From contig MFUZ01000006.1 in assembly GCA_001785865.1 (NCBI GenBank), positions 111,307 to 175,306 of the forward strand: a stretch of 64,000 nt of DNA, written 5' to 3'. Source of the DNA: Candidatus Nomurabacteria bacterium RIFCSPLOWO2_01_FULL_41_18 (lineage in GTDB: Bacteria > Patescibacteriota > Minisyncoccia > Phycocordibacterales > UBA9973). The translations under genes were made by a program, and so were the position numbers. Below are positions 16,978-63,226 of the stretch, piece after piece. Every line of letters begins with the position of its first letter. Positions within the stretch are counted from its first letter, which is position 1. The notes beneath the pieces are model-generated. The model saw only the letters and a program-made list of their open reading frames with translations, had not been told where the DNA came from and ran no database searches.

Positions 16978-18561
16978 CTATTCAAATTCCGTAGTTGCTG
17001 GAGGTTTTGGGGTCATATCAAAAAATACACGCACGATGTCTTTGTGTTTTGTGAGAGCGCTAGTGATTTCATTTATTATTTCTTCTGGAAAGTAATAGCT
17101 TTTGGCAGTCATGAAGTCTACCGTTTGTACAGCGCGCACAGCTAGAGAGTGGCCATAAACTCTTTCATCCCCTTTTACTCCCACGGAATTGATGCCGATA
17201 AGGGCGACTATGAGTTGAGAAATATCTTTTGTGATTTTGTGTTTCTTTAAAATATCAGAAACTGTTTTGTCCGCTTCTCGCACCAGCGTGATGTTTTCTT
17301 TTGATACTGGCGTGCCGACAATTCGCAAATATAATCCTGGGCCAGGAAAAGGATTGCGTTCGTATATCGCAGGCGGAAGCTTGAGCGTGCGTGCCAGCTC
17401 CCTCACTTCGTATTTGAATAAATTTCGGAAAGGATGAAGGTCTTCTACTTTCCATAAGAGCCCCACATTGTGATGTGTCTTGATCATAGCAGACTCCCCT
17501 ATTTTTCCACTTTCAATTATGTCGGTCGCGAGTGTGCCCTGCACGATAAACCCGGCATTATATTTTGCTATCTGTTCTTCAAAAATTTTCTTGTATACTT
17601 CCCGGAACCTTGCTCTCTTTTCTTCCCCATCGATGGTAGTACTGACATTTTTTATAAATTCATCACCGGCGTCTATGACTGTAAAATTCTTAAGTCCGTT
17701 TTTTCCGAGAGCGCTCCCGGTATTTGCTTTTAATTCTGAAAGTTCTCCTGCTCGGAGCCCCCCTGTGTCGATTGCGACGCATATGAGCCTGTCTTTGAGA
17801 ACTGGAGCGAGAATAGCAGCTAGGGTGGTGGAGTCTACTCCGCCGGAAACGCCTAGAATCACTTTTTGTTTAATCACCTCACCCTTTTTCCCTCTCCTGT
17901 CAGGAGAGGGTTTGGGAGAGGTTACAATATCCAAAACTTCTTTTTGAATTTCACGGATTAAGTCTTCCGGATTCCAGTCTTTTTTACAGCCGGAAATTTT
18001 TAAGAAATTCTGCAACATTTTTTTGCCTTCCTTGGTGTCAGCAACCTCGGGATGAAATTGAATACCGAGGACTCGATTTGTCTTGTCGCTCATCGCGGCT
18101 ATTCCTCCCGAGACGGCAATAGACCGGAATCCTTTTGGAAGCTTGGAAACTGTATCTCCGTGGCTTGCCCAGACTTCTGTTTTTTCTTTTACACCACTGA
18201 AAAGTGGGTGTGTTGTGTCTAATGTAACAACAGCTGGTCCATATTCGCGATGGTCATGAGGTCTCGCTACCTTGCCTCCTTGTTTGTGCGCGAGGAGCTG
18301 CATTCCGTAACAGACTCCCAGGATAAAATATTTTTTACCGGTAATGTCGAGAGATTTAGGAAGTTCCGGAGCTCCTTCATTGTGCACGCTCCAATTGCTA
18401 CCGGAGAGAATAACTGTTTTTGGATCATTTTCTTTGAGCCACTGGTCCACTTTTTTAGGAGGTAGTATCAGGCTTCTCACTCCGAGCTCGCGCAAACTCC
18501 TCCCGATGACTAGTGTGTACTGAGAGCCGTAATCCACGATAAGTATTTGTATGTCCTTCAT
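16978..18561 (-). CDS. guaA: GMP synthase (glutamine-hydrolysing). Start is probably MKDIQILIVDYGSQYT at 18561.
   Basis: GATase class I domain, ATP-PPase domain (SGGVDS) and a C-terminal dimerisation domain ending ...PPATTEFE. Confidence 0.9.
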   Translation of the reverse strand: MKDIQILIVDYGSQYTLVIGRSLRELGVRSLILPPKKVDQWLKENDPKTVILSGSNWSVHNEGAPELPKSLDITGKKYFILGVCYGMQLLAHKQGGKVARPHDHREYGPAVVTLDTTHPLFSGVKEKTEVWASHGDTVSKLPKGFRSIAVSGGIAAMSDKTNRVLGIQFHPEVADTKEGKKMLQNFLKISGCKKDWNPEDLIREIQKEVLDIVTSPKPSPDRRGKKGEVIKQKVILGVSGGVDSTTLAAILAPVLKDRLICVAIDTGGLRAGELSELKANTGSALGKNGLKNFTVIDAGDEFIKNVSTTIDGEEKRARFREVYKKIFEEQIAKYNAGFIVQGTLATDIIESGKIGESAMIKTHHNVGLLWKVEDLHPFRNLFKYEVRELARTLKLPPAIYERNPFPGPGLYLRIVGTPVSKENITLVREADKTVSDILKKHKITKDISQLIVALIGINSVGVKGDERVYGHSLAVRAVQTVDFMTAKSYYFPEEIINEITSALTKHKDIVRVFFDMTPKPPATTEFE

Positions 18562-18588
18562 AATATGTGTTAGTATACACGATATATT

Positions 18589-20100
18589 ATGCAAAAGACA
18601 AAGGTGAAAGCGCAAAGAAAAATAAGGGGCGAAGACAGGGAAAATTTTGAGGAAGGCCTTACCTATGATGATGTGCTCTTAGTTCCCCAATATTCAGAGG
18701 TTCTGCCTCGCGATGTTAATATCTCTTCTCACCTAACTAAAAAAATAAAGCTTAATGTGCCCATCATTTCGGCTGCTATGGATACTGTCACTGAGGCATC
18801 TATGGCCATAGCTATGGCGCAAGAAGGCGGGATAGGGATTATTCACAAGAATATGAGTATTGAAAAACAATCGGCTGAAATCCGTAAAGTAAAACGTTCA
18901 GAGAGCGGTATGATTCACGATCCGATAACTCTTACTGAAAAAGCTTTACTCAAAGAAGCTCTTGCCATTATGCAAGAAAATAAAATTGGTGGTATACCGA
19001 TAGTTGATAAAAACAAGAAACTTTTGGGAATTATTACCAATCGTGATTTACGATTTCAAAAAAATCTAGAACTTCCTGTTTCTGAAATAATGACTAAAGT
19101 AAATTTGATAACTGCCAGTATCGGCACAAATTTGGTTGAAGCCGAGAAAATACTTACAAAATATAAAGTTGAAAAATTACCGTTGGTGGACAAACAGAAC
19201 AAGCTGATCGGCCTCATCACCTACAAAGATATCATGAAAGTAAAGTCGCGTCCGAATTCCTGTCGAGATAGCCTTGGGCGTCTGCGAGTGGGAGCTGCGG
19301 TCGGAGTCGCTTCTGATACAATCGAGAAAGTCGGCATGCTCGCTCAAAACGGCGTCGATGCGGTAGTCATCGATACTGCCCACGGCCATTCGAAAGGAGT
19401 GATCGAAATGCTTAAAAAAATCAAAAAGGAATTTCCAAAACTTGAGGTTATTGTTGGCAATATCGCGACTCCCGAAGCAGCACGGGACCTCATCAAAGCT
19501 GGCGCTGATGCGATAAAAGTAGGTATCGGCCCAGGTTCTATCTGTACCACTCGTATAATCGCTGGAGTCGGTTTTCCTCAATTTTCTGCTGTCTACGAGG
19601 TCGCCCAGGGGATCAAAGGCTCCGGAGTGCCTATTATTGCCGATGGTGGTATCCGACACACTGGAGACATCCCAAAGGCTCTAGCGGCTGGTGCGAGCGC
19701 AATCATGGCAGGTTCTCTTTTTGCTGGAGTGGAAGAATCCCCTGGTGAGACAATAATTTTAGACGCTAGGAAATACAAGACATATCGTGGCATGGGTTCT
19801 ATCGAGGCCATGCAGCTCGGATCCAAGGACAGATATTTCCAGGATGCCGAAGACAATATCAAAAAGCTTGTGCCAGAAGGAATTGTCGGCCGGGTCTCTT
19901 TCAAGGGCGGGCTGTCGGAAGTGATCTATCAGCTGGTGGGAGGGCTGCGAGCCGGAATGGGATACTGCGGAGCAAAAGATATTGCGACTCTACAGAAAAA
20001 AGCAAAATTTGTTCGCATCACCCACTCTGGAATCGAGGAGAGCCATCCGCATGATGTGATAATTACAAAAGAAGCTCCAAACTATACCCTGGGAGAATAA
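18589..20100 (+). CDS. guaB: IMP dehydrogenase with tandem CBS domains.
   Basis: IMPDH catalytic loop ([11 protein letters not shown]) and a CBS pair. Confidence 0.9.
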
Positions 20101-25952: not shown

Positions 25953-26785
25953 AATGTTTTTCCGCCCGAGGCGGATCCGCCTTTGGCGGAGAAATATTTA
26001 ACTGCGTTTTTAAAAATTTTTAAACCAGCTCCCTCTTTTGATATTTTTTTATTTTTTTGCCCGTCCCGTAGGAAACTTGTTTTCGTATGGGACCACATCG
26101 GACTCTGGTGTGAAAACATTGCTCGCTCAGGATGTGGCATCATTCCAAGAACTCTCCCATTATAAGCTAAAACCCCCGCAATGTCATGTTCTGAACCATT
26201 TGGATTGTATTCTAAATTTTGGAAATTACAAATTTCTCCTTTTGTATAACGAAGAGCTATTTCTACCTCGTCGGCTTTTACATATTTCCCCTCCCCATGA
26301 GCAATAGGAAGAGAAATCTTTTTTATTCCAGAAAGCCAAGGAGATCGCCCCACAATTTCCAAGTCCACCCATCTGTCTATATATTGCCCATTTTTGTTAT
26401 ACGTAAGTGCTCCGGGTAAGACTCCCAAATTGGTCATAATTTGGAATCCATTACAAATGCCTATAGCGAGGGTGTCGCGCGATAAAAATTCTGTGAGTTC
26501 TTTTGCTAAATGATTTTTGAATTTATTAGCATAAGCTTTTCCGCTTCCTGTATCATCGCCATAAGAAAATCCTCCCGGAAAAACTAGAATTTGGTAATCC
26601 AAAAGCATTTTTGGCTTAGCTATCAAGTCATTGATATGTACAATATCTGCAGACCCACCCACAGACTCAAAAGCGAATTTAGTTTCTTCTTCGCAGTTCA
26701 ACCCATATCCTGACATTATTATAATCCGAGGCTTTGTAGCCGAAGGTATTGAGCTATGTGAATGTATTGGCTTTTTGTTTTTCAT
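25949..26785 (-). CDS. purQ: Phosphoribosylformylglycinamidine synthase, glutaminase subunit (PurQ-like).
   Basis: Class I GATase with the Cys nucleophile (AIGICNGFQ) and HPE triad (MMPHPER). Confidence 0.8.
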   Translation of the reverse strand: MKNKKPIHSHSSIPSATKPRIIIMSGYGLNCEEETKFAFESVGGSADIVHINDLIAKPKMLLDYQILVFPGGFSYGDDTGSGKAYANKFKNHLAKELTEFLSRDTLAIGICNGFQIMTNLGVLPGALTYNKNGQYIDRWVDLEIVGRSPWLSGIKKISLPIAHGEGKYVKADEVEIALRYTKGEICNFQNLEYNPNGSEHDIAGVLAYNGRVLGMMPHPERAMFSHQSPMWSHTKTSFLRDGQKNKKISKEGAGLKIFKNAVKYFSAKGGSASGGKTL

Positions 26786-39149: not shown

Positions 39150-42100
39150 TTATTTAGAAAAATATGCAAACGCCGCTAAAATGGAAGCAATCGAACCGAT
39201 ACCGAATTCGCTCTGCTCAACAATTGCGCTCAAGTCAAAATATCTTCTCAGGATGGGATACGCATCCTGCTCGATGGACGGATAAACATTATTATTGTTT
39301 TGTATAGTGGCAGCATAATCATTACCATTTGAAGCATGATAGCTAGGGCCAAAGACTGGAATACCCGGAACCGGTAAGGTGGCTCCACTGTTCTGTCTGA
39401 GCCAAATAGAAGTAAGATGAAGAGGATTCTTTGGAGGCATGGATCCGATGCCGGTAATATAGCTCTGATTTTGCGGATTTGCTCCGAGCTCGACATCAAA
39501 ATTTATTTTCGCCGCTTCAAGATATTTCTCATCACCAAGAATTATATTTGCAAGGATAAGATGAAAAGACCGAGAAGCGCTGTGAGCAAATTGGCCCCAG
39601 CTGATATACGAAGGCACATCCAGACGATATCCGACACGGTAAGGGTTGCTATATGTCCAATTATATTCTTCATCAGCTAGGCTTCTGTATTCGCTCTTAA
39701 TATTTGTCACTATGGCAGGATCAGTCGGATATTTTGTCGTCAGATAAGCAAACGAAGCCTGGGAATTGTGATATACGAAATTATTATAAATATTGTAAAA
39801 CGGGGAAGTTTGCTGCCAATATGTCTTGAATGCCTGTGCGTACTCAACGTTTCCTGTTGCTTTATACAGTTCAGCCGCCGCCCAAGCCCGATTATCAACA
39901 TCAGAATATGGGCAGGTAGAGCCGGGCACTTGATTATCGGAGCAATTAGAAAGAGCCTTGTCTTGATAATCTCCGCCACCAATCCCTAATTTTCTGACAT
40001 CAATTCCGTTTGCCGGCAGTGGCGTCGGGTGCTTATTGAGAAAATCCCAAGCCTTGACTGCTTTCACTAAAAGATTGTCTGCATATCCGGGATACTTCGT
40101 CTCGAAGGTGGCATTTTTTTTAAAGACTTGGGAAGCCTGCGCTAGAACCGCCGCATAGACTGCCGTGGTGTGAGTGGACACTGGCGCGAGATACCTAGTT
40201 TGGATATCGTAAGGGCTCTTTTCCCACTGCTGTGAGGTAAGTCGATCGAATACTCCGCCATCTTTGGTCTGCATTTTTTGAAACCAGTCGATTTCATATT
40301 TGATTTCATCAAGAATATCGGGAATACCATTATTTTTTTCAGGAATATCCGCTTGATTGTCACTGAATTTCTGTGGATACAGCTCATATGCGAGCAGTAA
40401 TTCATTTACCGGCGCCGAAGCTGGTAAGATATATTTTCCATAGTCACCGGCATCGTACCATCCGCCAGTCATATCAAACTTCGTCCCGAGTGGATAATCT
40501 ATTTTCGATACCGGAAGCGGATTATCGGTGCTCAATACATAGACGCTCGGATGGAGAACTGCCGCTCGGTCGCTCGAGAGAGTCCCTGCCGGACGCGACC
40601 ACTCTCCATAATTAATCGGAACATCCGCGCGTGCGGCATAGTAGAAATTCATAAGTTTTTTGGTCACGTCCTTAAATATGTCTGAACCGATTTTGAACGA
40701 ATATGATCGTCCGAAGCCTGGAACAGATACATAGTAAGATCCGGCCGATGTTATAGTCGAAAAATCACAGTTATAAATAATGTTTCCACTGCGCGAAATA
40801 TCGTTCGCTCTAAATAGCGCTGGAAATTCTGCAACAAGGGTATTCGAGGCGGCATTCATTACCTTACATTTTGCTGGCACACCAGTAAGTGAACCCGCAT
40901 CTCCGATGTAATTCCCGATGTATGCGAATTTTGGCGATGCTGGCAGATAGCCGACTTGATTTACCTGAACCGAACCTGTGATGACAGCATCGGAGTAAGT
41001 GAATGGTAGTATTTTAGGGGTAGAAAAATTATTACCGAAAAGATCGGGAATATTTTTGACTGTCAGCGTATAATTGCGCCCCTCTACCAGCGGGGTATCG
41101 AAGACCAGGTACAGATTTGATTCGAAAGTGGGAGCCTTGGCTAAACCATACGATCCTCCAGTCGAAGCCTCGAAGCCATTCACATGGAATTCTCGGCCTA
41201 TTTGCACTGGTGATCGGCCTGAAGAAAAATTTGAGTCCCCGCTTCCCGTCAAAACATAGTTGGAAGCATTCACTACTCCATTTATATCATAGCGATCCTT
41301 GGTGGTAAGTTTTATAACTTTATTTGAAATCGGTTGGAGATTTAATACAGTGTTAGGACTTGTTTTTATAGCATATATATCATCAATTTGAAATGAATAT
41401 GTGGGTGTAACTCCTGAGGCGGAGCTAAACCATAAATTCTCCATACTCGAAAGATCAAAACCGCCTGAGACTTTTAGCGCACTTACAGGAATGCGAAGCA
41501 TGCGATAAGAAGCTCCTAGTGTGCCACCGCCTGTAATATAGTCTTCCATTTTGACTGAAGCACTGGTGTTGGGCCATCCATATATAAGAAAACGGCCAGT
41601 GGGAATTGCCGGTAGTGTCGTTCCGGGATTTGGAACAACTTTTACCATCATTTGGATAAAATCATACTGTGCTAAACTTTTTCTGTACGCTGTCGGAAGA
41701 TTTGCTAAACTCAAATTACCTGCATTGTATTGACTAGGTGTTGCTTTCAATGAATACGTGCCAGAACTTGCTCCTTCTGAAACAACAGTTCCATATGTAA
41801 TTCCTGTCGAACGTTCAATAGCAGATTCTCCAGTCCAAATTTTTAATTGTTTTTCTAAATCAATTCTAATGGGATCAGGCGGTATTGGAGGAGTTATTAT
41901 AATTGAAGGAGGAACTATTACAACAGGAGGCACAACGACCACAGGAGGAGTAACGACTACAGGTGGTGTAATGACGACAGGAGGCGGAGGAGGGACAGTC
42001 GCTCCTGTAGGATGAAAAACAATATCATCTACATAATAGACTGAATTTGACTTACTTAATGAAAATCGCATACCATCAACTTTTGACAAATTCCAAGATG

Positions 42101-43139
42101 TAGTTTTTAAAGCGCTTACTGGAATCGTAACTTGTTTCCAATTTGTATTTAGAGTGCCACCTTGGATATAAGAATTTAAATTTACAGTGGAACTTTCTGC
42201 ATAGCCACTATTCCCTGCCCATGTCCAAAATGTGACCGTAACAGGATCTGTATTTGCTGTCGCACTTCGAATCATAAATGTTAGAGTCTCATAAAGTCCG
42301 AGATCTGTACGCTGACGATTGCCACAGTAAATTTTTAGCGAAGGAGTATGCCAAGGATCTGGTGTGAGTTTGAGTGAGGGTGAATCATTTATGCCTTGAT
42401 TACTAACTTGGGCTAAATATTCAGAACAGGATGATGAAAGAGGAGAAGAACTGCCATTAAAAATAGTCAATGTGGACGTGGGGGTAGTAGGTACTACGAC
42501 AGGAGGAGTAACGGCTTGTTCAATTTTGGGTTGGAAAATAATGTTGTCTATATAATAAATAGAATTGGAGGCACTTACAGAAAAACTGACAGCATCGGCA
42601 TTGGAAAGATCCCAAGAAGATATTTTTAAAGCGGATATTGGTATGGTTACTTGCTTCCAATCAGTACCAATTGAACCACCTTGAATATATTCATTGATGG
42701 AGACAGTTTTGCTATTTGCGTAACCATTTGGTCCAGCAAATGTCCAGAACGAGACATTTAGAGGGTCTGTGGTTGCCGTGGCACTTCGTATCATAAAAGT
42801 AAAATTCTCATATGCACCGAGATCTTTTCGTGGATTGTTCATACAATAAACTTTGAGCACTGGGGCATGCCACTTGTCTGGAATCAATTTAAGGCTGGTG
42901 GAGCCATTTACACCAGTTCCCTGTTCTTGTGTTGCATATTCGTAACACGAAGGACTTGGTGCAGGATTTGCATCTCCATCAAATAAAGTAAATGGAATCT
43001 GTGCAACCGAGGCTGTATAAGGAGAGCCATCTTTGAACCCTATATTATTCATTAATTTTGTATTAGTTATAACAACAAGAAAAATGAGAATAATAATTAT
43101 TATTCCGAAAGCAATATAGTATCGTAAATTTTTTTTCAT
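39150..43139 (-). CDS. Large secreted multi-domain glycoside hydrolase, GH9-like. Architecture is a signal anchor, then two tandem modules of about 170 aa, a Pro/Val-rich linker, a third module, an Ig-like domain, and a C-terminal (alpha/alpha)6 catalytic domain.
   Basis: N-terminal MKKNLRYYIAFGIIIIILIFLVV. Two roughly 50% identical repeats (…LKLIPDKWHAPVLKVYC… and …LKLTPDPWHTPSLKIYC…). A PPVV linker. A GH9 hallmark 'FDMTGGWYDAGDYGKY' and C-terminal acidic catalytic motifs. Confidence 0.8.
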   Translation of the reverse strand: MKKNLRYYIAFGIIIIILIFLVVITNTKLMNNIGFKDGSPYTASVAQIPFTLFDGDANPAPSPSCYEYATQEQGTGVNGSTSLKLIPDKWHAPVLKVYCMNNPRKDLGAYENFTFMIRSATATTDPLNVSFWTFAGPNGYANSKTVSINEYIQGGSIGTDWKQVTIPISALKISSWDLSNADAVSFSVSASNSIYYIDNIIFQPKIEQAVTPPVVVPTTPTSTLTIFNGSSSPLSSSCSEYLAQVSNQGINDSPSLKLTPDPWHTPSLKIYCGNRQRTDLGLYETLTFMIRSATANTDPVTVTFWTWAGNSGYAESSTVNLNSYIQGGTLNTNWKQVTIPVSALKTTSWNLSKVDGMRFSLSKSNSVYYVDDIVFHPTGATVPPPPPVVITPPVVVTPPVVVVPPVVIVPPSIIITPPIPPDPIRIDLEKQLKIWTGESAIERSTGITYGTVVSEGASSGTYSLKATPSQYNAGNLSLANLPTAYRKSLAQYDFIQMMVKVVPNPGTTLPAIPTGRFLIYGWPNTSASVKMEDYITGGGTLGASYRMLRIPVSALKVSGGFDLSSMENLWFSSASGVTPTYSFQIDDIYAIKTSPNTVLNLQPISNKVIKLTTKDRYDINGVVNASNYVLTGSGDSNFSSGRSPVQIGREFHVNGFEASTGGSYGLAKAPTFESNLYLVFDTPLVEGRNYTLTVKNIPDLFGNNFSTPKILPFTYSDAVITGSVQVNQVGYLPASPKFAYIGNYIGDAGSLTGVPAKCKVMNAASNTLVAEFPALFRANDISRSGNIIYNCDFSTITSAGSYYVSVPGFGRSYSFKIGSDIFKDVTKKLMNFYYAARADVPINYGEWSRPAGTLSSDRAAVLHPSVYVLSTDNPLPVSKIDYPLGTKFDMTGGWYDAGDYGKYILPASAPVNELLLAYELYPQKFSDNQADIPEKNNGIPDILDEIKYEIDWFQKMQTKDGGVFDRLTSQQWEKSPYDIQTRYLAPVSTHTTAVYAAVLAQASQVFKKNATFETKYPGYADNLLVKAVKAWDFLNKHPTPLPANGIDVRKLGIGGGDYQDKALSNCSDNQVPGSTCPYSDVDNRAWAAAELYKATGNVEYAQAFKTYWQQTSPFYNIYNNFVYHNSQASFAYLTTKYPTDPAIVTNIKSEYRSLADEEYNWTYSNPYRVGYRLDVPSYISWGQFAHSASRSFHLILANIILGDEKYLEAAKINFDVELGANPQNQSYITGIGSMPPKNPLHLTSIWLRQNSGATLPVPGIPVFGPSYHASNGNDYAATIQNNNNVYPSIEQDAYPILRRYFDLSAIVEQSEFGIGSIASILAAFAYFSK
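41880..41995. repeat. In-frame tandem DNA repeats encoding the (T/V)PPVV linker of the GH9-like protein.
   Basis: Repeated ggaggNacNacNacagg units were seen directly in the sequence. Confidence 0.5.
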
Positions 43140-43221
43140 GTAGTTTTATAAAACAGTCCTGTCTCTTATTGTAGCACATCCCAAGTCTTTTAGTTGCAAG
43201 AGGTACTTTATAGGCCTATCT

Positions 43222-43255
43222 ATCCCATCAAAATCAGCTCGATTCTGGTGGGATT
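43222..43255 (+). repeat. 34-nt direct repeat, copy 1 (atcccatcaaaatcagctcgattctgGtGggatt).
   Basis: 32/34 identical to copy 2 at 45625-45658, in the same orientation. Confidence 0.7.
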
Positions 43256-43427
43256 CATTGTTTAAGGAAGCTAGAAAATTAAACTTAAATGAACCTTATC
43301 TCAAAGGTTTTTTAGAGTATACGTTTAATTTACTGTGGGAAGATCTTGAAATTGAATTACAAAAAAGATTTGAATTTAAAATTGAAGATGAAAATGTTAT
43401 TTTCACTAAAGTTAAAGAACAATAATT

Positions 43428-43862
43428 TTACATCTCCACTATCACCGTCACTGTGATGATGCCGATTATTGGGTATCTCTGCCAAAAATCAGAACTTAAC
43501 TTCTCTACAGCTGTGAAGCGTCCTTCAATGCGAACATCTTGATCCATGGGTGTGGTAGAAATCTGGTCAGGCATGTCGCCTCCATCGAGTGCATAATAAA
43601 CTCCGTCATTTGTTCTAAAACCGAATGCACATTCTAATGTCTGTGGACCGTCTGGGTTTGTGTGTGGCAAGCATACGATTCTACCCTCTTTGGTTATAGC
43701 TGGAGATCCATCATCAATAATCATTTCAAAAGTACCTCCTTGCTCATCATTACTTTCCACTAAGTCATCTGGTTTTGGACTTTCTGCTGTTTTAGAAGCA
43801 TAGACACTTATCCCTATAACAATTAATATACCAACTAAAGCTAATATGTATTGTTTTTTCAT
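43428..43862 (-). CDS. Hypothetical secreted or membrane-anchored protein.
   Basis: N-terminal signal/TM MKKQYILALVGILIVIGISVYA. Confidence 0.4.
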   Translation of the reverse strand: MKKQYILALVGILIVIGISVYASKTAESPKPDDLVESNDEQGGTFEMIIDDGSPAITKEGRIVCLPHTNPDGPQTLECAFGFRTNDGVYYALDGGDMPDQISTTPMDQDVRIEGRFTAVEKLSSDFWQRYPIIGIITVTVIVEM

Positions 43863-43874
43863 AAATTTATTATA

Positions 43875-44624
43875 TCAGATTTTAATTCCATAAAACTTAA
43901 GTGCCTCTTCTATGGTTTGGGGAAAGCTTTTCTTTAGTTTTTCTGGAATTTGACCATCTCTTTCACTTCTTTCCACAGCCTCTTTTATTAAATCCCAAGT
44001 AAATTCAGATCTTTGTTTATCTGGATCAGAAGCCAATTTCCTTAAAAATATATCTCTGTATTTTTTTACTGCATTACCTATACTTAATGTGAAATATGAA
44101 TTCAGACGAACATCAGCACTAACACTTGCCCCTTTATCTTCCCAAGTATGAGACATCATTCTGTAATTAACAGCATCTTGAATTGAATCACTATCTATAG
44201 GGCCTACAAAAACGTGCTCTGTGAGTGTTTCTTTTAGGTTTAATTTATCTTTAACTTTATTCAATTTTTCTATAAAAATTTCCTTCAGTAATTTTTCAAA
44301 AAGATAGACATTTAAATCCTCAATTCCAAATTTCTTACCAAGTTTCAATATCGTTTCTTCTGGAAGAGCTCGGAATTCTTCTATATCAAATCTTAATTTG
44401 CAATCAATGTCAGTTTCCAAAGCAGTCTCGTGAGTCAATTCTTTTCCTTTCACTAATGAACCAAAAACGGAAATTGAAATAGGTAAAGGGAGTTGAGCTT
44501 GTAATTCATGACAAATATCTCTTAGAGCCTCAATACGCCTTCTCGAAAATTCATCTTTTGATATTTCGTAACGTTTATTGTGCGATGCAACATATGGAAT
44601 TTTGTTCGTGATTCTTTCTGTCAT
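43875..44624 (-). CDS. Pol-beta-superfamily nucleotidyltransferase-like protein (ANT/KNTase-like pattern).
   Basis: 'SVFGSLVKGKELTHETALETDIDCKL' matches the hG[GS]...[DE]h[DE]h NTase signature. Compare GVYGSLGRQTDGPYSDIEMMCV in ANT(4'). Confidence 0.4.
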   Translation of the reverse strand: MTERITNKIPYVASHNKRYEISKDEFSRRRIEALRDICHELQAQLPLPISISVFGSLVKGKELTHETALETDIDCKLRFDIEEFRALPEETILKLGKKFGIEDLNVYLFEKLLKEIFIEKLNKVKDKLNLKETLTEHVFVGPIDSDSIQDAVNYRMMSHTWEDKGASVSADVRLNSYFTLSIGNAVKKYRDIFLRKLASDPDKQRSEFTWDLIKEAVERSERDGQIPEKLKKSFPQTIEEALKFYGIKI

Positions 44625-44643
44625 GTTTCTAATTATAACAAAT

Positions 44644-44805
44644 TTAAGAATCTTTTCTCTTCCTGAATATACCTATAATACCGACGATGAACAAGAATAG
44701 TCCTAGCAACTGTCCACCAGGGCTATCATCAATTTCACCATATACAAACAAAAACCCGCCGAACAATATAGTAAGTACAAAGCATATTAGTTTAATTTTA
44801 TTCAT
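44644..44805 (-). CDS. 53-aa small 2-TM membrane protein. Not in the supplied track.
   Basis: MNKIKLICFVLTILFGGFLFVYGEIDDSPGGQLLGLFLFIVGIIGIFRKRKDS. Its stop lies 20 nt upstream of the NTase-like gene start. Confidence 0.3.
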   Translation of the reverse strand: MNKIKLICFVLTILFGGFLFVYGEIDDSPGGQLLGLFLFIVGIIGIFRKRKDS

Positions 44806-44920
44806 ATTCTAATATTATCATGTAAGCCCACCTGAATGAAATTCATTTCGGGCAGGTAATCTATTACGTAAACGAATACGTATTTCTATTTCCATGCAAT
44901 TTTAAAATGTGTTAAAATAA

Positions 44921-45409
44921 TTGCATATGAAATTAACACCAAAAAATACAATTTGCCTCTGGTTTGATAAGGATGCAGAAAGCGCAGCGAAATTTTATGC
45001 TGTTACTTTTCCCGATAGCAAAGTAGGTGCCGTTTTTCATGCACCCACTGATTTTCCTGGTGGCAAGGAAGGCGATGTGCTGACGGTGGAGTTTACAGTC
45101 TGTGGGATTCCCTGTGTCGGTTTGAATGGTGGCCCAGCGTTTAAGCAAAGTGAGGCATTTTCCTTTCAGATCAGAACGGAGGATCAGGAAGAAACCGATC
45201 GTTATTGGAACGCAATCGTAAGAAATGGCGGCAAAGAAAGTGAGTGTGGTTGGTGTAAAGACCGCTGGGGTTTATCTTGGCAGATCACACCACGCACCTT
45301 GATAGAAGCTCTTGCAGCTGGTGGCGCCGAAGCAAAACGCGCTTTCGAAGCGATGATGACCATGGGAAAAATTGACGTCGCTGCTATTGAAGCAGCGAGG
45401 CGAGGGTGA
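44921..45409 (+). CDS. VOC (glyoxalase/bleomycin-resistance fold) family protein, PhnB-like.
   Basis: '...ICLWFDKDAESAAKFYAVTFPDS...' resembles the PhnB/3-demethylubiquinone-9 methyltransferase-like domain. The region is clearly more GC-rich than its flanks. Confidence 0.55.
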   Translation: MHMKLTPKNTICLWFDKDAESAAKFYAVTFPDSKVGAVFHAPTDFPGGKEGDVLTVEFTVCGIPCVGLNGGPAFKQSEAFSFQIRTEDQEETDRYWNAIVRNGGKESECGWCKDRWGLSWQITPRTLIEALAAGGAEAKRAFEAMMTMGKIDVAAIEAARRG

Positions 45410-45477
45410 GAGGCACAAGATATAGTGAAGAGTTCCCGTTGTACCGGTTGTACTCGATTTTATTTTTTGGCTGGGGG

Positions 45478-45551
45478 ACTTGGAATCGAACCAAAATTAA
45501 TGGCTTCAAAGGCCACTGTCCTACCGTTAGACGATCCCCCAATATCTATAA
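45478..45551 (-). tRNA. tRNA-Gln (anticodon UUG).
   Basis: Manually folded: acceptor TGGGGGA/TCCCCCA (a U1-A72 pair as in tRNA-Gln), D-stem GTCT/GGAC, anticodon stem GTGGC/GCCAT with loop CTTTGAA, T-arm TTTGG-TTCGATT-CCAAG, discriminator G, and an encoded CCA. Confidence 0.8.
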
Positions 45552-45624
45552 AAACATTTAATTTATAACACAAATTTGCCCCAAAAACCACCTTTTGAAG
45601 TCAAAAAGACTCGAATCCCATCAA

Positions 45625-45658
45625 AATCAGCTCGATTCTGCTAGGATTGGGGTATTTG
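45625..45658 (+). repeat. 34-nt direct repeat, copy 2 (atcccatcaaaatcagctcgattctgCtAggatt).
   Basis: Matches copy 1 at 43222-43255. It lies between the dnaX stop and the 5' end of tRNA-Gln. Confidence 0.7.
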
Positions 45659-45675
45659 GAGATTATGAACCAGTC

Positions 45676-46749
45676 CTATTCTTTATTTAAAATCTTCACG
45701 AGTGCGAGTTCTAGTGGCAACTCTGCAATAAAAGCGTTATCTATATTCTGATAAGCTTCGAGCAAAATTGCGAGTGCCGGAGAACGAATCATGCCCGATT
45801 TATCTTTGGAGACTAATTCTTGCAAGAACTCCAAATCAGCTTCGGATAAATCCCCTACCACACTTTCTTTTAATTTTGGGGCATAACGCAGAATTATAGC
45901 CATTCGAAACTTTTGAATTATAAGTTTAAAATATAATTTGATATCTAAATTTGATTCCGATGCAGTTTGGATGGCTTTTATTCCCTTGGATATATCATTG
46001 GAAGCAATCGCAGAAATAAAATCATTTACAAGAGTTGTTTTTGGTGCGCCAGTTATCTTTTCTACATCTTCTCGAGATACTTGCCCCGTCCCGAGCTTGC
46101 TCTGGTGCGGGGTTTTCTTACCATTTCCAATAAAATTTAAAACTTTCTGCAACTCCCCTAACCCATCCCGGAAAGACCCATCCGCTAAAATAGCCAAAAG
46201 TTCTGCGGACCCGCCGTCCAATTCGAAACCTTCTTTCTTTGCCACATCGATAAGCATTTTCTTGCACGCAGTATCAGATGCTTTTTTGAAAGTAAAAACC
46301 TGACAGCGAGAAATAATAGTTTCGGGAACTTTGTGAAGCTCGGTAGTAGCTAAAATAAAAATGACGTGCTTTGGGGGCTCTTCCAGAGTTTTGAGGAGTG
46401 CTCCCCACGCGTCTTTGGAAAGCATATGCACTTCGTCTATTATGTAAACTTTATATTTTGAATCGAAAGGCAAAACTCGCGCGCCATCACGCAAAAGTTT
46501 TATGTCCTCGATGCCTCTGTTTGAGGCAGCGTCTATTTCATATAAATCATTGGGAGATACTCCAATACTTGTGGCAAAAATCCTAGCCACAGAAGTCTTG
46601 CCTGTGCCTCGTGTCCCCACGAAAAGGTACGCGTGAGAGACCTTGTTCGTCTCTACAGAGCTCTCCAAGACCTTTACGATATGATCCTGCCCCAAGACCT
46701 CCTTGAAGCTTTTAGGTCTGTATTTGCGATAAAGTGCCAAGTCATGCAT
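45676..46749 (-). CDS. dnaX: DNA polymerase III subunit gamma/tau, short form. Start at MHDLALYRKYRP.
   Basis: YRPKSFKEVLGQDHIV...HAYLFVGTRGTGKTS clamp-loader AAA+ motifs. Confidence 0.85.
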   Translation of the reverse strand: MHDLALYRKYRPKSFKEVLGQDHIVKVLESSVETNKVSHAYLFVGTRGTGKTSVARIFATSIGVSPNDLYEIDAASNRGIEDIKLLRDGARVLPFDSKYKVYIIDEVHMLSKDAWGALLKTLEEPPKHVIFILATTELHKVPETIISRCQVFTFKKASDTACKKMLIDVAKKEGFELDGGSAELLAILADGSFRDGLGELQKVLNFIGNGKKTPHQSKLGTGQVSREDVEKITGAPKTTLVNDFISAIASNDISKGIKAIQTASESNLDIKLYFKLIIQKFRMAIILRYAPKLKESVVGDLSEADLEFLQELVSKDKSGMIRSPALAILLEAYQNIDNAFIAELPLELALVKILNKE

Positions 46750-46888: not shown

Positions 46889-47317
46889 TCAACGAAAAGA
46901 CCAGTCGGAATCTCTGAGGTCTTCGTAATCTACGCTTGACCAAAGAGGTTTGCCAGCTTCTTCAGTCCATTTGTGTAAATAACTGATGATAATCCCCAGA
47001 AATTCCAAAAAGGAAAATGAAAGAAATATCAATAAAATCATCCACAAACCTAATTTGGGATTAAGAATGTAGGCAATCCATATTCCAGCCAATACAAAAT
47101 GATATGGAAGAATCCAATTGTGTGTGCCAATTTTGAGACATTCTGGCCACTTTGAAGATTTTCCTCCAAACTTGTTTTCCCACCGGCTTAGCCTAAAAAG
47201 GCTATCTACTATCGCATACATACACACCAACACATACGACAGGATGTTGAATAGGAACCACAGCACAGAGCCTGCAACTGTGCGGATTGCAAAGAACAGA
47301 TTGTTCATAGTTTTCAT
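46889..47317 (-). CDS. Hypothetical membrane protein. The start is set at the internal MKTMNN.
   Basis: Four hydrophobic helices. Confidence 0.35.
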   Translation of the reverse strand: MKTMNNLFFAIRTVAGSVLWFLFNILSYVLVCMYAIVDSLFRLSRWENKFGGKSSKWPECLKIGTHNWILPYHFVLAGIWIAYILNPKLGLWMILLIFLSFSFLEFLGIIISYLHKWTEEAGKPLWSSVDYEDLRDSDWSFR

Positions 47318-47433
47318 AGATTTTTCAGAGTGTTTCGTTTTCCTGTTGTAAAAGAACGAGCTCCGCCAAGAGCTCGGATTATCCCTTACTCCAGGTTTGT
47401 TTACATAAACACTAGAAAAAAAGTGCTCAAAAG

Positions 47434-48435
47434 TCAATCTTGCTTTAGAAAATCGTTTATTACATTTTCCACCTGTTTTGAATTCTCAGTTTCCATCAAT
47501 TTTACCCTCAATTCTTTAGCTCCATCAAAACCGTTTACATATGCTTTAAAATGTTTTTTCATTGTCGCAAAATTCTTATGTTTAGGTTTCAAAAGTTCTT
47601 TTTCAAAAATCTGTACATGTTCCAGGAGAACTTGCAGTTTATCTTCTAAAGTTATTGGAGAATCAAAATAAGTAGGGTTGAAAACCCAAGGATTGCCAAA
47701 CATTGCTCTACCTAGCATTACTCCATCACAACCATATTCTTTATATTTCCTCCTAGCGTCGTCAATATCTGCGACATCACCATTTCCAATAAGTAAAACA
47801 TTTTTTCCACTTTTTTGAATAAGTTTTTTTATTTTTTCAATATGTTCCCAATGAGCTCCCACAAGTGACAACTCTTTAGAAGTCCGTAGATGAATAGTCA
47901 GAGCAGAAATGTCTTCTTTCAGAAGTTCTGGAATCCATGAGTCGATTTCTTCTTTATTAAAACCCACTCTCGTTTTGACTGATACAGGGATGTTTACTCC
48001 AGCGGATTTTATCCCAGCATGAACTGCTTGAATGATCTCTCTCGCACGCGCCGGATTTTTTATATGTCCCGCTCCGGCACCCTGACTCACTACTGATTTG
48101 TCTGGACAACCCATATTTATATCTATTCCATCAAAACCCAAGCTGGCGACATACTGGCAAGCCTTCTTCATCTTTTCTGGATTAGCACCGAAAATTTGAG
48201 CCACAATCGGCCGTTCACCCTCACTGAATTCAAGCATATGTGATAATTTTTTTCTACCGAGAGGATCAGCTAAACCATCCGCTGATACGAATTCAGTCCA
48301 AAAAACAATTTTGTTTCTATTTTCTCTATTTTTGCTGTATTTGGCTATGATGCGACGAAAAGCGATGTCAGTAACATCTGACATTGGTGCAAGGCAGAAA
48401 AAAGGTTTATCTAATTTTTCCCAAAAGTTCTGCAT
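47434..48435 (-). CDS. tRNA-dihydrouridine synthase.
   Basis: FCLAPMSDVTDIAFRRI... TIM-barrel Dus family with a catalytic Cys region (MGCPDKSV). Confidence 0.85.
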   Translation of the reverse strand: MQNFWEKLDKPFFCLAPMSDVTDIAFRRIIAKYSKNRENRNKIVFWTEFVSADGLADPLGRKKLSHMLEFSEGERPIVAQIFGANPEKMKKACQYVASLGFDGIDINMGCPDKSVVSQGAGAGHIKNPARAREIIQAVHAGIKSAGVNIPVSVKTRVGFNKEEIDSWIPELLKEDISALTIHLRTSKELSLVGAHWEHIEKIKKLIQKSGKNVLLIGNGDVADIDDARRKYKEYGCDGVMLGRAMFGNPWVFNPTYFDSPITLEDKLQVLLEHVQIFEKELLKPKHKNFATMKKHFKAYVNGFDGAKELRVKLMETENSKQVENVINDFLKQD

Positions 48436-61517: not shown

Positions 61518-63226
61518 TTTATTTTTCCCAAAGTTTTATTTGCTTCTTCATAATTTATCGGACAAGCCACAATATGTACTCCTTTAGAGTTTAAAGCTTT
61601 TTCCAGAGTTGGCAAGAGATCTTTTGCTTTCTCTATTTTATGTCCAACTGCGCCGAAACTTTCTGCCATCATCACAAAATCCGGATTTTTGAAATCAAGC
61701 CCAAATGGAGACAAATTCATATCTTTTTGCTTGGAGCGGATCATTCCAAAACCAGAGTCATCTAATATGAGCACTACCAAATTTATCTTTAGACGAACAG
61801 CTGTCTCCAATTCCCCAATACTCATCATTATACCCCCATCACCAGAGACAACTATAACTTTTTTGTCTTTATCAGGATAAAGAATTTTTAGAGCAATACC
61901 CGAAGGCAACCCTGCACCCATGGTCGCCAGTGTATTATCCAGAAGAATACCGTTTCGTTCTTTGGTGATAAAATTTTGGGCAAAATAGAGCTTATACATG
62001 CCGTTGTCTAAAGCCAGCAGGCCGTCACTTGGTAATATTTTTTGTATGTCCGAAATAATTCTCTCTGGTCTAAGGGGGAAGTCCAGTGATTCTGTAAATT
62101 TGGCTGTATTTTTTTTATAAGTATCTCGTGCTTTAAGAAAATAACTAAAATCCCAATCAGGGTTTCCGCCCGAGGCGGATCTGCCTTTAGCGGAAATTTT
62201 TCTTGTGAACTCTGAAAGTGTATGCGCAACATCCCCCACTACTTCATGAGTTGGCATATAAATATCTGAAAAAGTAGAAGAGAAGAAATTAATATGAATA
62301 ATTTTTATATTTTTTGAATTCTCTTTATTAAAAATAATAGGTGGTTTTTCGATCACATCATGCCCGATAATGATAACGACATCTGCCATATGTAATGCTT
62401 GATGCACATAATCACCTTCAGAAAGAGCTGTAGTGCCGATATAAAGTTTAGAACTTTCATCCTCCACTCCTTTACCCATTTGAGTTGAAACAAAGGGTAT
62501 GCCCGTTTTTTTTATAAACACTTCCAGTTCTTTTTGTACAGGATGTCTGTTTAATCCGCCACCTAAAATGATTATTGGATGTTTTGCTTTTTCTATTTCA
62601 TTAATTGCAAGAGTTATGGCTTTTTCGTCTGCATTAGGATAAACAATTTTTTTAGAAATAATTGGAACTGCATCACACATTTCTTCAGCAATATCTTCTG
62701 GTAACTCTAAATGCACTGCGCCAGGACGTTCAGTCTCAGCGAGACTTATAGCCTTCGAGATTATATCTGGCACTTGTTTCCCTTTTGTAATAGTCGCAGA
62801 AAATTTAGTTATTGGTCTCATCACAGCCACAATATTAACAATTTGGAATTCTCCCTGCTCATTCTTTTTTATCGGTTTCTGTCCCGTAATGACCAAAAGA
62901 GGAAAACCGCCCAACTCCGCATAAGCCACTCCTGTAAGCAAATTTGTGGCCCCAGGGCCAAGTGTAGAGAGCGCAACCCCCACTTTGCCTGTAATCCTGC
63001 CAAAGGTAGCTGCCATAAAAGCTGCCGCCTGCTCGTGACGAGTGGTGATGAAAGTGATTTTGGATTTCCTCACTGCATCCAAAAAAGTCAAATTCTCCTC
63101 TCCTGGTACGCCAAAAATATACTCCACGCCATGGGCTTCCAAACATTCCACAAGTACTTCTGCTGTGTTTTTAGTTTTCTTTTGCACAATTTTTAATCTA
63201 CTTTTTAGGGAATTCTCCTTCGACAA
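61514..63226 (-). CDS. Thiamine diphosphate-dependent enzyme, acetolactate-synthase large-subunit-like.
   Basis: Three-domain ThDP architecture with a GDG(G) ThDP-binding motif (…VVSGDGGIMMSIGELETA…). Confidence 0.75.
   Translation of the reverse strand: MSKENSLKSRLKIVQKKTKNTAEVLVECLEAHGVEYIFGVPGEENLTFLDAVRKSKITFITTRHEQAAAFMAATFGRITGKVGVALSTLGPGATNLLTGVAYAELGGFPLLVITGQKPIKKNEQGEFQIVNIVAVMRPITKFSATITKGKQVPDIISKAISLAETERPGAVHLELPEDIAEEMCDAVPIISKKIVYPNADEKAITLAINEIEKAKHPIIILGGGLNRHPVQKELEVFIKKTGIPFVSTQMGKGVEDESSKLYIGTTALSEGDYVHQALHMADVVIIIGHDVIEKPPIIFNKENSKNIKIIHINFFSSTFSDIYMPTHEVVGDVAHTLSEFTRKISAKGRSASGGNPDWDFSYFLKARDTYKKNTAKFTESLDFPLRPERIISDIQKILPSDGLLALDNGMYKLYFAQNFITKERNGILLDNTLATMGAGLPSGIALKILYPDKDKKVIVVSGDGGIMMSIGELETAVRLKINLVVLILDDSGFGMIRSKQKDMNLSPFGLDFKNPDFVMMAESFGAVGHKIEKAKDLLPTLEKALNSKGVHIVACPINYEEANKTLGKIK

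What the first reader, a model, noticed from the sequence alone, without database searches (positions are those of the whole stretch)
43222..45658. 34-nt direct repeats bracket a 2.4-kb segment containing tRNA-Gln, a GC-rich VOC gene and a nucleotidyltransferase operon
atcccatcaaaatcagctcgattctg(G/C)t(G/A)ggatt occurs at 43222-43255 and 45625-45658 in the same orientation (32/34 identity) and nowhere else in the window. Copy 1 lies in the upstream region of the GH9 gene, inside a start-less ORF fragment (…IPSKSARFWWDSLFKEARKL…EQ*). Copy 2 lies between dnaX and the 5' end of tRNA-Gln. The bracketed DNA mixes compositions: the VOC gene on the opposite strand is GC-rich. This is consistent with a small integrated or recombined cassette next to a tRNA, or with a duplicated regulatory element or gene fragment.
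Basis: seen in the sequence. Interest (0 to 1): 0.5.

Follow-up and report, generated by a model that had tools for sequence, protein, structure and literature searches.

The report
Dispersed palindromic hairpin repeat, not cassette
The two 34-base repeats are copies of a small hairpin-forming repeat that occurs at least three times in the spaces between genes of this groundwater Nomurabacteria genome, so they are not the ends of an inserted gene cassette.

Summary
The repeat is real: 32/34 identical, direct orientation, none expected by chance. The second copy is at 45615-45648, not 45625-45658. It is an imperfect palindrome that folds into a 7+7 bp hairpin with a 5-nt loop.

A third copy, 34/34 identical to copy 2 when one flanking base is included, lies on another contig of the same genome bin (same locus-tag prefix A2738_). 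It sits in the 46-nt spacer between convergent genes (rpmB and a 128-aa gene).

The cassette reading fails:
- A relative has dnaX followed directly by tRNA-Gln with the same promoter block and no 34-mer.
- There is no integrase or transposase within 10 kb.
- No repeat is derived from the tRNA.
- Six assemblies show the same arrangement.

Copy 1 abuts the truncated 5' edge of a gene remnant (the C-terminal half of a 93-95 aa family), so it marks a rearrangement junction.

In another groundwater bacterium, a Y1/RAYT-like transposase gene is flanked by direct copies of a palindrome with the same end motif. No such gene lies in the ~82 kb I could read.

Best reading: a low-copy, lineage-specific REP-like element. 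Total copy number, the enzyme that moves it and any RNA-level role remain untested.

The parts
43222..43255 (-). Copy 1 of the 34-nt imperfect palindrome. Read on the minus strand: AATCCCAC-CAGAATC-GAGCT-GATTTTG-ATGGGAT. It lies 172 nt downstream of the 144-aa gene, just upstream of the GH9 gene's promoter region, and abuts the truncated edge of the 94-aa-family remnant.
45615..45648 (-). Copy 2 of the palindrome (35 nt if base 45614 is included). It lies 27 nt downstream of the dnaX stop and 73 nt upstream of the 5' end of tRNA-Gln. Together with about 50 nt of flanking spacer, it is extra sequence relative to relative L057.
45468..45541 (-). tRNA-Gln(UUG). It is the ancestral neighbour of dnaX, not cargo.
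45542..45578 (-). Upstream (promoter) block of tRNA-Gln, conserved with relative L057. The 34-mer lies outside it.
   Evidence: alignment A1
45676..46749 (-). dnaX (DNA polymerase III gamma/tau subunit). This is the last gene of the block that stays syntenic in relatives.
43258..43425 (+). 5'-truncated remnant of a 93-95 aa protein family (C-terminal ~52 residues only). Homology starts at the edge of copy 1.
39150..43139 (-). 1329-aa secreted protein with CelD_N and GH9 domains. It is absent near dnaX in relatives.
43428..44805 (-). Three lineage-specific genes of 144 aa, 249 aa and 53 aa, none with a family assignment. The 249-aa family is rare (14 hits).
44927..45409 (+). GC-rich VOC/PhnB-like gene (PF06983). 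Other Paceibacterota carry a version at least 90% identical in protein, in a different gene context.

Best explanation
The 34-mer is a short, dispersed, extragenic imperfect palindrome (REP-like hairpin element) of the genome of Candidatus Nomurabacteria bacterium RIFCSPHIGHO2_01_FULL_42_15. It is not the boundary of a cassette.

Shown:
- At least three near-identical copies (32-34/34) sit in unlinked intergenic spacers of the same genome bin.
- Each copy lies downstream of a gene and in the same orientation relative to that gene.
- In that orientation all three fold into the same hairpin: 7 bp, a 1x1 mismatch, 7 bp, and loop GAGCU.
- The orthologous dnaX/tRNA-Gln spacer of a relative lacks the element. 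Its 18-nt core did not extend into the element in any species-representative genome scanned.
- One copy lies exactly at the break point of a truncated gene.

Inferred:
- The copies arose recently by copying of the small unit itself, not of the 2.4 kb between them.
- The most likely agent is a Y1 (HUH) transposase of the IS200/RAYT type, supplied in trans and acting on the single-stranded DNA hairpin. A related groundwater bacterium has such a gene flanked by direct copies of a palindrome with the same terminal motif.
- Once inserted, the hairpin is transcribed at the 3' end of the upstream gene. There it could act as a 3'-end stabiliser or a weak insulator in front of the next promoter.
- Copies can serve as break or recombination points, as the junction at copy 1 suggests.

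My confidence in the core claim (dispersed palindromic repeat, not attachment sites) is about 0.8. For Y1-transposase mobilisation it is about 0.3, and for a role at the RNA level about 0.3.
For: Palindrome and hairpin:
- The hairpin is stable: -15.7 and -14.5 kcal/mol, z-scores -4.4 and -2.8.
- Both differences between the copies are neutral for the minus-strand hairpin. One changes C-G to U-G; the other falls in the unpaired position.
- The copy-2 variant does not fold on the opposite strand in the L013 context: -18.6 against -6.1 kcal/mol.

Third copy in the same genome:
- It is 34/34 identical to 45614-45647 and was found in three metagenomes. It fills the 46-nt spacer between convergent genes, 5 nt and 7 nt from the two stop codons.
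- It belongs to the same genome bin. Locus tags are A2738_00430/00435 against A2738_01410-01420, and a second bin carries accessions OGI92905/6 against OGI93051-54.
- Tetranucleotide correlation with the window is 0.95, equal to that between chunks of the window.

Absence elsewhere:
- All 37 genome-contig hits to the 18-nt core are chance matches that do not extend.
- L057 has dnaX directly followed by the conserved tRNA-Gln promoter block and tRNA-Gln, without the element.

No cassette hallmarks.

Copy 1 lies at the truncation point of the 94-aa-family remnant.

Analogue in L060:
- A 225-aa Y1_Tnp protein scores 36 bits against Pfam PF01797, above the cut-off of 23. Its best NCBIfam model is REP_Tyr_transpos (E=1.5e-10).
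- The gene is flanked by direct copies of AAYCCAGCAAGG-ACTCC-CCTTGCTGGRATT.
- That shares AATCC(N)AGCA...TGG(G)ATT with the 34-mer.

The known REP description fits in size, palindromic form and position downstream of ORFs, between unidirectional or convergent genes (PMC3733652, PMC2817692).
Against: - Only three copies are known, in about 82 kb of readable sequence. Classical REPs number more than 100 per genome (PMC2817692). The total here is unknown because the rest of the genome could not be scanned.
- There is no GTAG or CGTC tag next to the palindrome.
- No Y1 transposase lies in the window or in L013/L059.
- The link to the L060 palindrome rests on a terminal motif of about 9 nt, and the L060 organism is only loosely related (249-aa homologue at 61% identity).
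- The L060 unit (~765 bp) could be a plain IS200-like insertion sequence rather than a RAYT with dispersed REPs.
- The assignment to one genome rests on binning plus sequence composition, not on one contiguous sequence.
- Three copies sharing one orientation is weak evidence on its own (1 in 4 by chance).
Confidence: 0.6

Rival explanations
1. Functional cis element rather than a selfish repeat. The hairpin is selected as a 3'-end RNA structure (terminator, transcript stabiliser or processing site) or as an operator. It insulates the downstream promoters (tRNA-Gln, GH9) from read-through, and it terminates the convergent genes at the rpmB locus.
For: - All copies lie between the end of one gene and the next promoter, or between convergent genes.
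- All have the same orientation relative to the upstream gene.
- The substitutions preserve the hairpin on that transcript only.
- In L013 it is the only structure in a 46-nt convergent spacer.
Against: - No U-tract follows the stem, and the terminator scan finds nothing at either copy.
- Relatives use canonical terminators with a GC-rich stem and a U-tract (L055 and L057 sequences).
- Near-perfect identity of loop, mismatch and stem at three unlinked loci points to recent copying rather than convergent selection. So does the element's absence from the orthologous spacer in L057 and from every species-representative genome scanned.
- A 34-bp operator conserved at 94-100% would be unusual.
Confidence: 0.18
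2. The two copies are attachment or recombination sites (attL/attR, or a target duplication) of a 2.4-kb integrated or recombined cassette. They could excise the segment by site-specific or homologous recombination.
For: - Direct orientation and 94% identity.
- The bracketed DNA is lineage-specific: no homologues near dnaX in three relatives.
- Composition is mixed, with a GC-rich VOC gene probably acquired separately.
- The region downstream of dnaX differs from one relative to the next.
- Copy 1 is a true rearrangement junction.
- From general knowledge, 34 bp is about the minimum length for RecA-dependent recombination.
Against: - The bracket contains tRNA-Gln with its conserved promoter block in the ancestral position next to dnaX.
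- No integrase or recombinase lies inside the segment or within 10 kb.
- The repeat lies upstream of the tRNA's 5' end and is not derived from the tRNA.
- A third, solitary copy exists elsewhere in the genome.
- All six assemblies that span the region have the same arrangement.
Confidence: 0.08
3. The two hairpins are the left and right subterminal palindromes of a non-autonomous IS200/IS605-type ('peel-and-paste') transposon that lost its tnpA gene and carries cargo genes.
For: - From general knowledge of IS608, elements of the IS200/IS605 family carry similar imperfect hairpins in direct orientation at both ends and make no target duplication.
- In L060 a Y1 transposase gene is bracketed in exactly this way by a related palindrome, forming a unit of ~765 bp.
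Against: - The same synteny argument applies: tRNA-Gln inside the bracket is orthologous to the copy next to dnaX in L057.
- The third copy has no partner within 3.8 kb on one side or 13.9 kb on the other.
- No Y1 gene is present in the sequence I could read.
Confidence: 0.07

Closest known systems
REP (repetitive extragenic palindromic) elements and their RAYT transposases (Proteobacteria; PMC2817692, PMC3116915, PMC3733652)
   Same: - A 20-40 nt imperfect palindrome.
- Extragenic, downstream of ORFs, between unidirectional or convergent genes.
- Near-identical copies at unlinked loci, specific to one lineage.
- A RAYT-like Y1 gene flanked by a similar palindrome exists in a related groundwater bacterium.
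   Different: - Only 3 copies are known, against tens to hundreds.
- No GTAG or CGTC tag.
- Copies are singletons rather than inverted pairs (REPINs or BIMEs).
- No cognate RAYT has been shown in this genome.
- The host is a reduced-genome Patescibacteria lineage. My two literature searches found no report of REPs there.
IS200/IS605-family insertion sequences and their miniature derivatives (PATEs)
   Same: - Subterminal imperfect hairpins in direct orientation.
- A Y1 HUH transposase acting on single-stranded DNA.
- The L060 unit (hairpin, Y1 gene, hairpin; ~765 bp) has the IS200 layout.
   Different: - The window's bracket has no transposase and contains an ancestral tRNA gene.
- The repeated unit is the 34-nt hairpin alone, with no shared flanking sequence.
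tRNA-targeted genomic islands with attL/attR direct repeats
   Same: Direct repeats near a tRNA gene bracket lineage-specific DNA of mixed composition.
   Different: - The repeat is not the 3' end of the tRNA.
- It lies upstream of the tRNA's 5' end.
- There is no integrase.
- A third copy lies elsewhere in the genome.
Rho-independent terminators
   Same: A hairpin a few nucleotides after stop codons, including a position between convergent genes.
   Different: - The stem is AU-rich with an internal mismatch.
- No U-tract follows it.
- The sequence, not just the shape, is conserved between loci.

Membership tests
REP elements | Short (20-40 nt) imperfect palindrome able to form a stem-loop | tested here: met
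   34-35 nt; 7 bp, a 1x1 mismatch, 7 bp, and a 5-nt loop. Energies are -14.5 to -15.7 kcal/mol, z-scores -2.8 to -4.4.
REP elements | Extragenic location, mostly downstream of ORFs, between unidirectional or convergent genes | tested here: met
   Copy 2 lies 27 nt after the dnaX stop. The L013 copy lies 5 and 7 nt from two convergent stop codons. Copy 1 lies in the spacer between the 144-aa gene and GH9, next to a pseudogene remnant.
REP elements | Many dispersed copies per genome (typically tens to more than 100) | tested here: inconclusive
   3 copies in about 82 kb of readable sequence from this genome. The metagenome collection is incomplete, since its scan missed the window's own two copies. 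No hit in the species-representative collection came from this genome.
REP elements | Conserved unpaired GTAG or CGTC tag at one end | tested here: not met
   The flanks of the three copies share nothing, and none shows GTAG or CGTC next to the stem.
REP elements | Cognate RAYT (Y1 transposase) gene in the same genome, flanked by the REPs | not testable with these tools
   No Y1 homologue lies in the window, L013 or L059, and the remainder of the genome could not be read. A RAYT-like gene flanked by a palindrome with the same end motif exists in L060, from another organism.
Integrase-mediated island (attL/attR) | Integrase or recombinase gene within or next to the bracketed DNA | tested here: not met
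   Precomputed Pfam annotation of all genes within 10 kb on either side shows none. The segment proteins have no such hits.
Integrase-mediated island (attL/attR) | The repeat reproduces part of the target, usually the 3' end of the tRNA | tested here: not met
   Outside the tRNA gene itself, the window holds only two chance 11-nt matches to tRNA-Gln and none of 12 nt or longer. The 34-mer lies upstream of the tRNA's 5' end.
Integrase-mediated island (attL/attR) | The whole bracketed unit is absent from relatives, which keep a single att copy at the empty site | tested here: not met
   In L057, tRNA-Gln (inside the bracket) directly follows dnaX (outside it), and no 34-mer is present. Relatives are about 13% divergent in dnaX protein, so closer empty sites were not available.
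IS200/IS605-type transposon | Y1 transposase gene between the hairpin ends, or the same unit repeated elsewhere | tested here: not met
   No Y1 gene lies in the segment. The third hairpin is solitary.
Intrinsic terminator | GC-rich stem followed immediately by a U-tract | tested here: not met
   None of the 5 terminator-like sites overlaps a copy. The tails are CGAGUCUUUUUG (copy 2), AGAUAGG (copy 1) and GGGGGGGUUAAAUGAG (L013 copy).

The most novel reading that the evidence does not exclude
Patescibacteria (CPR) genomes host a previously undescribed REP/RAYT-like system. Short AATCC...GGATT hairpins would be copied by a divergent Y1 transposase into spacers just after stop codons. There they act as 3'-end RNA structures and as break points that drive the gene-order turnover seen downstream of dnaX.
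Probability: 0.25. Interest if true: 0.5.

Novelty: new member of a known kind. Interest (0 to 1): 0.3.

Why it matters
As found, it matters little. It corrects a false lead (no mobile cassette) and shows that even a very small, streamlined CPR genome carries young palindromic repeats. If the link to a Y1/RAYT-type transposase holds, hairpin-mobilising single-strand transposition would extend to Patescibacteria. It would also offer a concrete mechanism for local rearrangements, since copy 1 sits on a gene truncation in a region where gene order differs between relatives.

Tried and rejected
- Rfam scan of 42500-46500 at E<=1: only tRNA-Gln and one chance miRNA hit. The hairpin belongs to no known RNA family.
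- Viral contigs: no match to the 18-nt core. I found no sign of a phage att site or protospacer.
- Genome-contig scan of the 18-nt core: 37 hits, all chance, with 19-26 of 35 positions identical.
- CRISPR repeat idea: rejected. Every hit is a single copy, never an array, and the two copies in the window are 2.4 kb apart.
- tRNA-like minihelix or tRNA 3' fragment idea: rejected. There is no tRNA signal in Rfam and no shared k-mers with tRNA-Gln. The T-loop-like reading needs a non-canonical C54.
- parS, DNA-uptake sequence and integron attC: rejected from recalled knowledge of their consensus sequences and copy numbers; I ran no test.
- Matches of the region encoded by copy 1 to repeats in two large proteins (P0289, P0294): judged to be chance similarity to an 'SAKEWA' repeat motif.
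- Exact-protein look-ups with the TTG-extended starts of dnaX and VOC failed; the ATG starts worked.
- Strain variants gave no empty site. L010, L058 and L059 are 99.9% or more identical to the window or to L013 and carry the copies unchanged.
- Homologues of the segment's proteins near dnaX in three relatives: none found.
Full report
**Observation**

The sequence ATCCCATCAAAATCAGCTCGATTCTG(G/C)T(G/A)GGATT occurs twice in the window, at 43222-43255 and at 45615-45648. The copies are in the same orientation, 32/34 identical and 2393 nt apart. None of 100 dinucleotide-preserving shuffles gave two matches. No further copy exists in the window even at 12 mismatches. Homology does not extend into the flanks, apart from one extra A on the left of copy 2.

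**Anatomy**

Read on the minus strand it is AATCCYA-S-CAGAATC-GAGCT-GATTTTG-A-TGGGATT. That is a 7-bp stem, a 1x1 mismatch, a second 7-bp stem containing one G-U pair, and a 5-nt loop.

Folding energies are -15.7 and -14.5 kcal/mol, with z-scores of -4.4 and -2.8. The two differences between the copies do not disturb this minus-strand hairpin. One changes C-G to U-G, and the other falls in the mismatch. On the plus strand, copy 2 loses two pairs.

**Context in the window**

| Feature | Position (strand) | Evidence |
|---|---|---|
| dnaX | 45676-46749 (-) | |
| Copy 2 | 27 nt after the dnaX stop | |
| tRNA-Gln promoter block and tRNA-Gln(UUG) | tRNA at 45468-45541 (-) | |
| VOC/PhnB-like gene, GC 47.8% against 39.8% for the window | 44927-45409 (+) | |
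| Genes of 53, 249 and 144 aa, no family assignment | 43428-44805 (-) | |
| 55-aa ORF | 43258-43425 (+) | |
| Copy 1 | 43222-43255 | |
| 1329-aa CelD_N + GH9 gene | 39150-43139 (-) | |

The 'nucleotidyltransferase' label for the 249-aa protein could not be confirmed with Pfam or NCBIfam.

**Source genome**

Exact-protein look-ups place the window on a 313-kb ENA contig and on several JGI and ENA contigs from aquifer metagenomes. The proteins carry GenBank names of Candidatus Nomurabacteria bacterium RIFCSPHIGHO2_01_FULL_42_15, with locus-tag prefix A2738_.

**A third copy**

A scan of JGI metagenome contigs with the 20-nt core found one further locus, recovered from three samples (L013-L015). 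There a 34-nt stretch is 100% identical to window 45614-45647. It fills most of the 46-nt spacer between the convergent genes rpmB and a 128-aa gene, 5 and 7 nt from the two stop codons.

This contig belongs to the same genome bin as the window:
- Its L28 and M50-protease genes are A2738_00430 and A2738_00435. The window's VOC, 249-aa and 144-aa genes are A2738_01410 to A2738_01420.
- A second, independent bin also holds both sets: OGI92905/6 against OGI93051-54.
- Tetranucleotide correlation with the window is 0.95, the same as between chunks of the window.

The 34-mer is therefore a dispersed repeat with at least three copies.

In the L013 context the hairpin forms only on the transcript of the 128-aa gene (-18.6 kcal/mol). 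It does not form on the rpmB transcript (-6.1 kcal/mol). All three copies thus have the same orientation relative to an upstream gene (dnaX, the 128-aa gene, the 144-aa gene).

**Distribution**

The 18-nt core gave 37 hits in the species-representative genome collection. All are chance matches that do not extend, with 19-26 of 35 positions identical. It gave no hits in viral contigs.

The metagenome collection missed the window's own contigs, so the total copy number cannot be read from it. None of the hits in the species-representative collection came from this genome.

**Synteny test**

Three relatives with 86-87% dnaX protein identity keep the upstream gene order (ParB, RelA, TopA, DprA, SerS, a 279-292 aa gene with no confident Pfam domain, Dus, dnaX). 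Each diverges immediately downstream of dnaX. None has homologues of the segment's proteins or of GH9 nearby.

In L057, dnaX is followed after 47 nt by tRNA-Gln. The block upstream of the tRNA is almost identical to the window's, and no 34-mer is present. So tRNA-Gln, which lies inside the bracket, is the ancestral neighbour of dnaX, which lies outside it. Copy 2, with about 50 nt of surrounding spacer, is a local addition.

Further evidence against a cassette:
- No integrase or transposase lies within 10 kb on either side.
- Nothing in the window is derived from tRNA-Gln.
- Six independent assemblies span both copies with identical spacing.

**Copy 1 marks a junction**

The start-less ORF is real coding debris. 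Its last ~52 residues align with the C-terminal half of a 93-95 aa protein family at 42-54% identity. The N-terminal ~40 residues are missing from the window. Homology starts at about 43258-43267, at the edge of copy 1. Whatever removed the 5' half of that gene, and joined it to the region upstream of GH9, ended at the palindrome.

**A lead on mechanism**

The 249-aa protein belongs to a rare family with 14 hits. In L060 its 61%-identical homologue is followed by a 225-aa Y1 (HUH) transposase:
- It scores 36 bits against Pfam Y1_Tnp, above the cut-off.
- Its best NCBIfam model is REP_Tyr_transpos (E=1.5e-10), though the score is below that model's cut-off.

That gene is bracketed by direct copies of a 29-33 nt palindrome, AAYCCAGCAAGG-ACTCC-CCTTGCTGGRATT. 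Its ends (AATCC-AGCA...TGG(G)ATT) match those of the 34-mer (AATCCTAGCA...TGGGATT).

This is the arrangement known for RAYT/REP and IS200 elements (PMC2817692, PMC3733652). It suggests, but does not show, that the 34-mer is moved by such an enzyme. No Y1 gene lies in the 82 kb of this genome that I could read.

**Comparison with known kinds**

The element meets the REP criteria of size, palindromic form and position. It fails the GTAG/CGTC tag criterion. Its copy number (3 known) is far below classical REPs.

It is not a canonical terminator:
- No U-tract follows the stem, and the terminator scan finds nothing at either copy.
- Relatives do use canonical terminators.

I therefore describe it as REP-like and do not file it as a strict member of the family. 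Two literature searches found no report of REP/RAYT systems in Patescibacteria.

**Verdict**

The repeat is real, but the cassette interpretation is wrong. The two copies are independent members of a small, young family of palindromic repeats. One of them coincides with a rearrangement break point.

Interest is modest. It would rise if a genome-wide scan showed many copies and a cognate Y1 transposase.

Noticed in passing
window 17869-17916; L013 1666-1709: A second palindromic element (core CCCTCTCCTGTCAGGAGAGGG flanked by CACCTCACCC) sits in frame inside the GMP synthase-like ORF (16978-18615, minus strand), where it encodes ...TSPKPSPDRRGKKGEV.... A related copy is intergenic, upstream of rpsL in L013. 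This recalls the in-frame palindromic elements of Rickettsia.
   Followed up: partly
window 25959-25990 and 62163-62194: A 32-nt GC-rich double-hairpin repeat (TTTCCGCCCGAGGCGGATCYGCCTTTRGCGGA), 94% identical between its two copies, lies inside two minus-strand ORFs. A similar motif occurs next to the 128-aa gene in L013.
   Followed up: partly
window 44927-45409; L063-L066: The GC-rich VOC/PhnB-like gene is at least 90% identical in protein, and 80% in DNA, to a gene of higher-GC Paceibacterota (45-48% GC), where it sits in a different context (PGA_cap, VOC, 166-aa gene, Peptidase_S51). The DNA similarity stops at the ends of the coding sequence. This suggests transfer of a single gene within the class.
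   Followed up: partly
L060 8757-9521: A ~765-bp unit made of a 225-aa Y1/RAYT-like transposase gene flanked by direct copies of a 29-33 nt perfect palindrome, immediately after the stop of the 249-aa family homologue.
   Followed up: partly
window 46889-47437: The 182-aa membrane-protein-like ORF between Dus and dnaX is absent from all three relatives, where Dus directly abuts dnaX. Both sides of dnaX therefore carry lineage-specific additions.
   Followed up: no
window 45489-45523 (inside tRNA-Gln): In one assembly (ERZ28563803, ANAN16-1) two scaffolds end inside tRNA-Gln and overlap by 35 nt. The break is in the tRNA gene, not at the 34-mer.
   Followed up: no
window 42010-42872 and L005/L009 beyond window 42617: The GH9 protein has an internal duplicated module of ~344 nt (67% identical) and proline/threonine/valine-rich linkers. 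One assembly (ERZ27254754) diverges from the window inside this repeat. That is either a misassembly or a strain variant.
   Followed up: no
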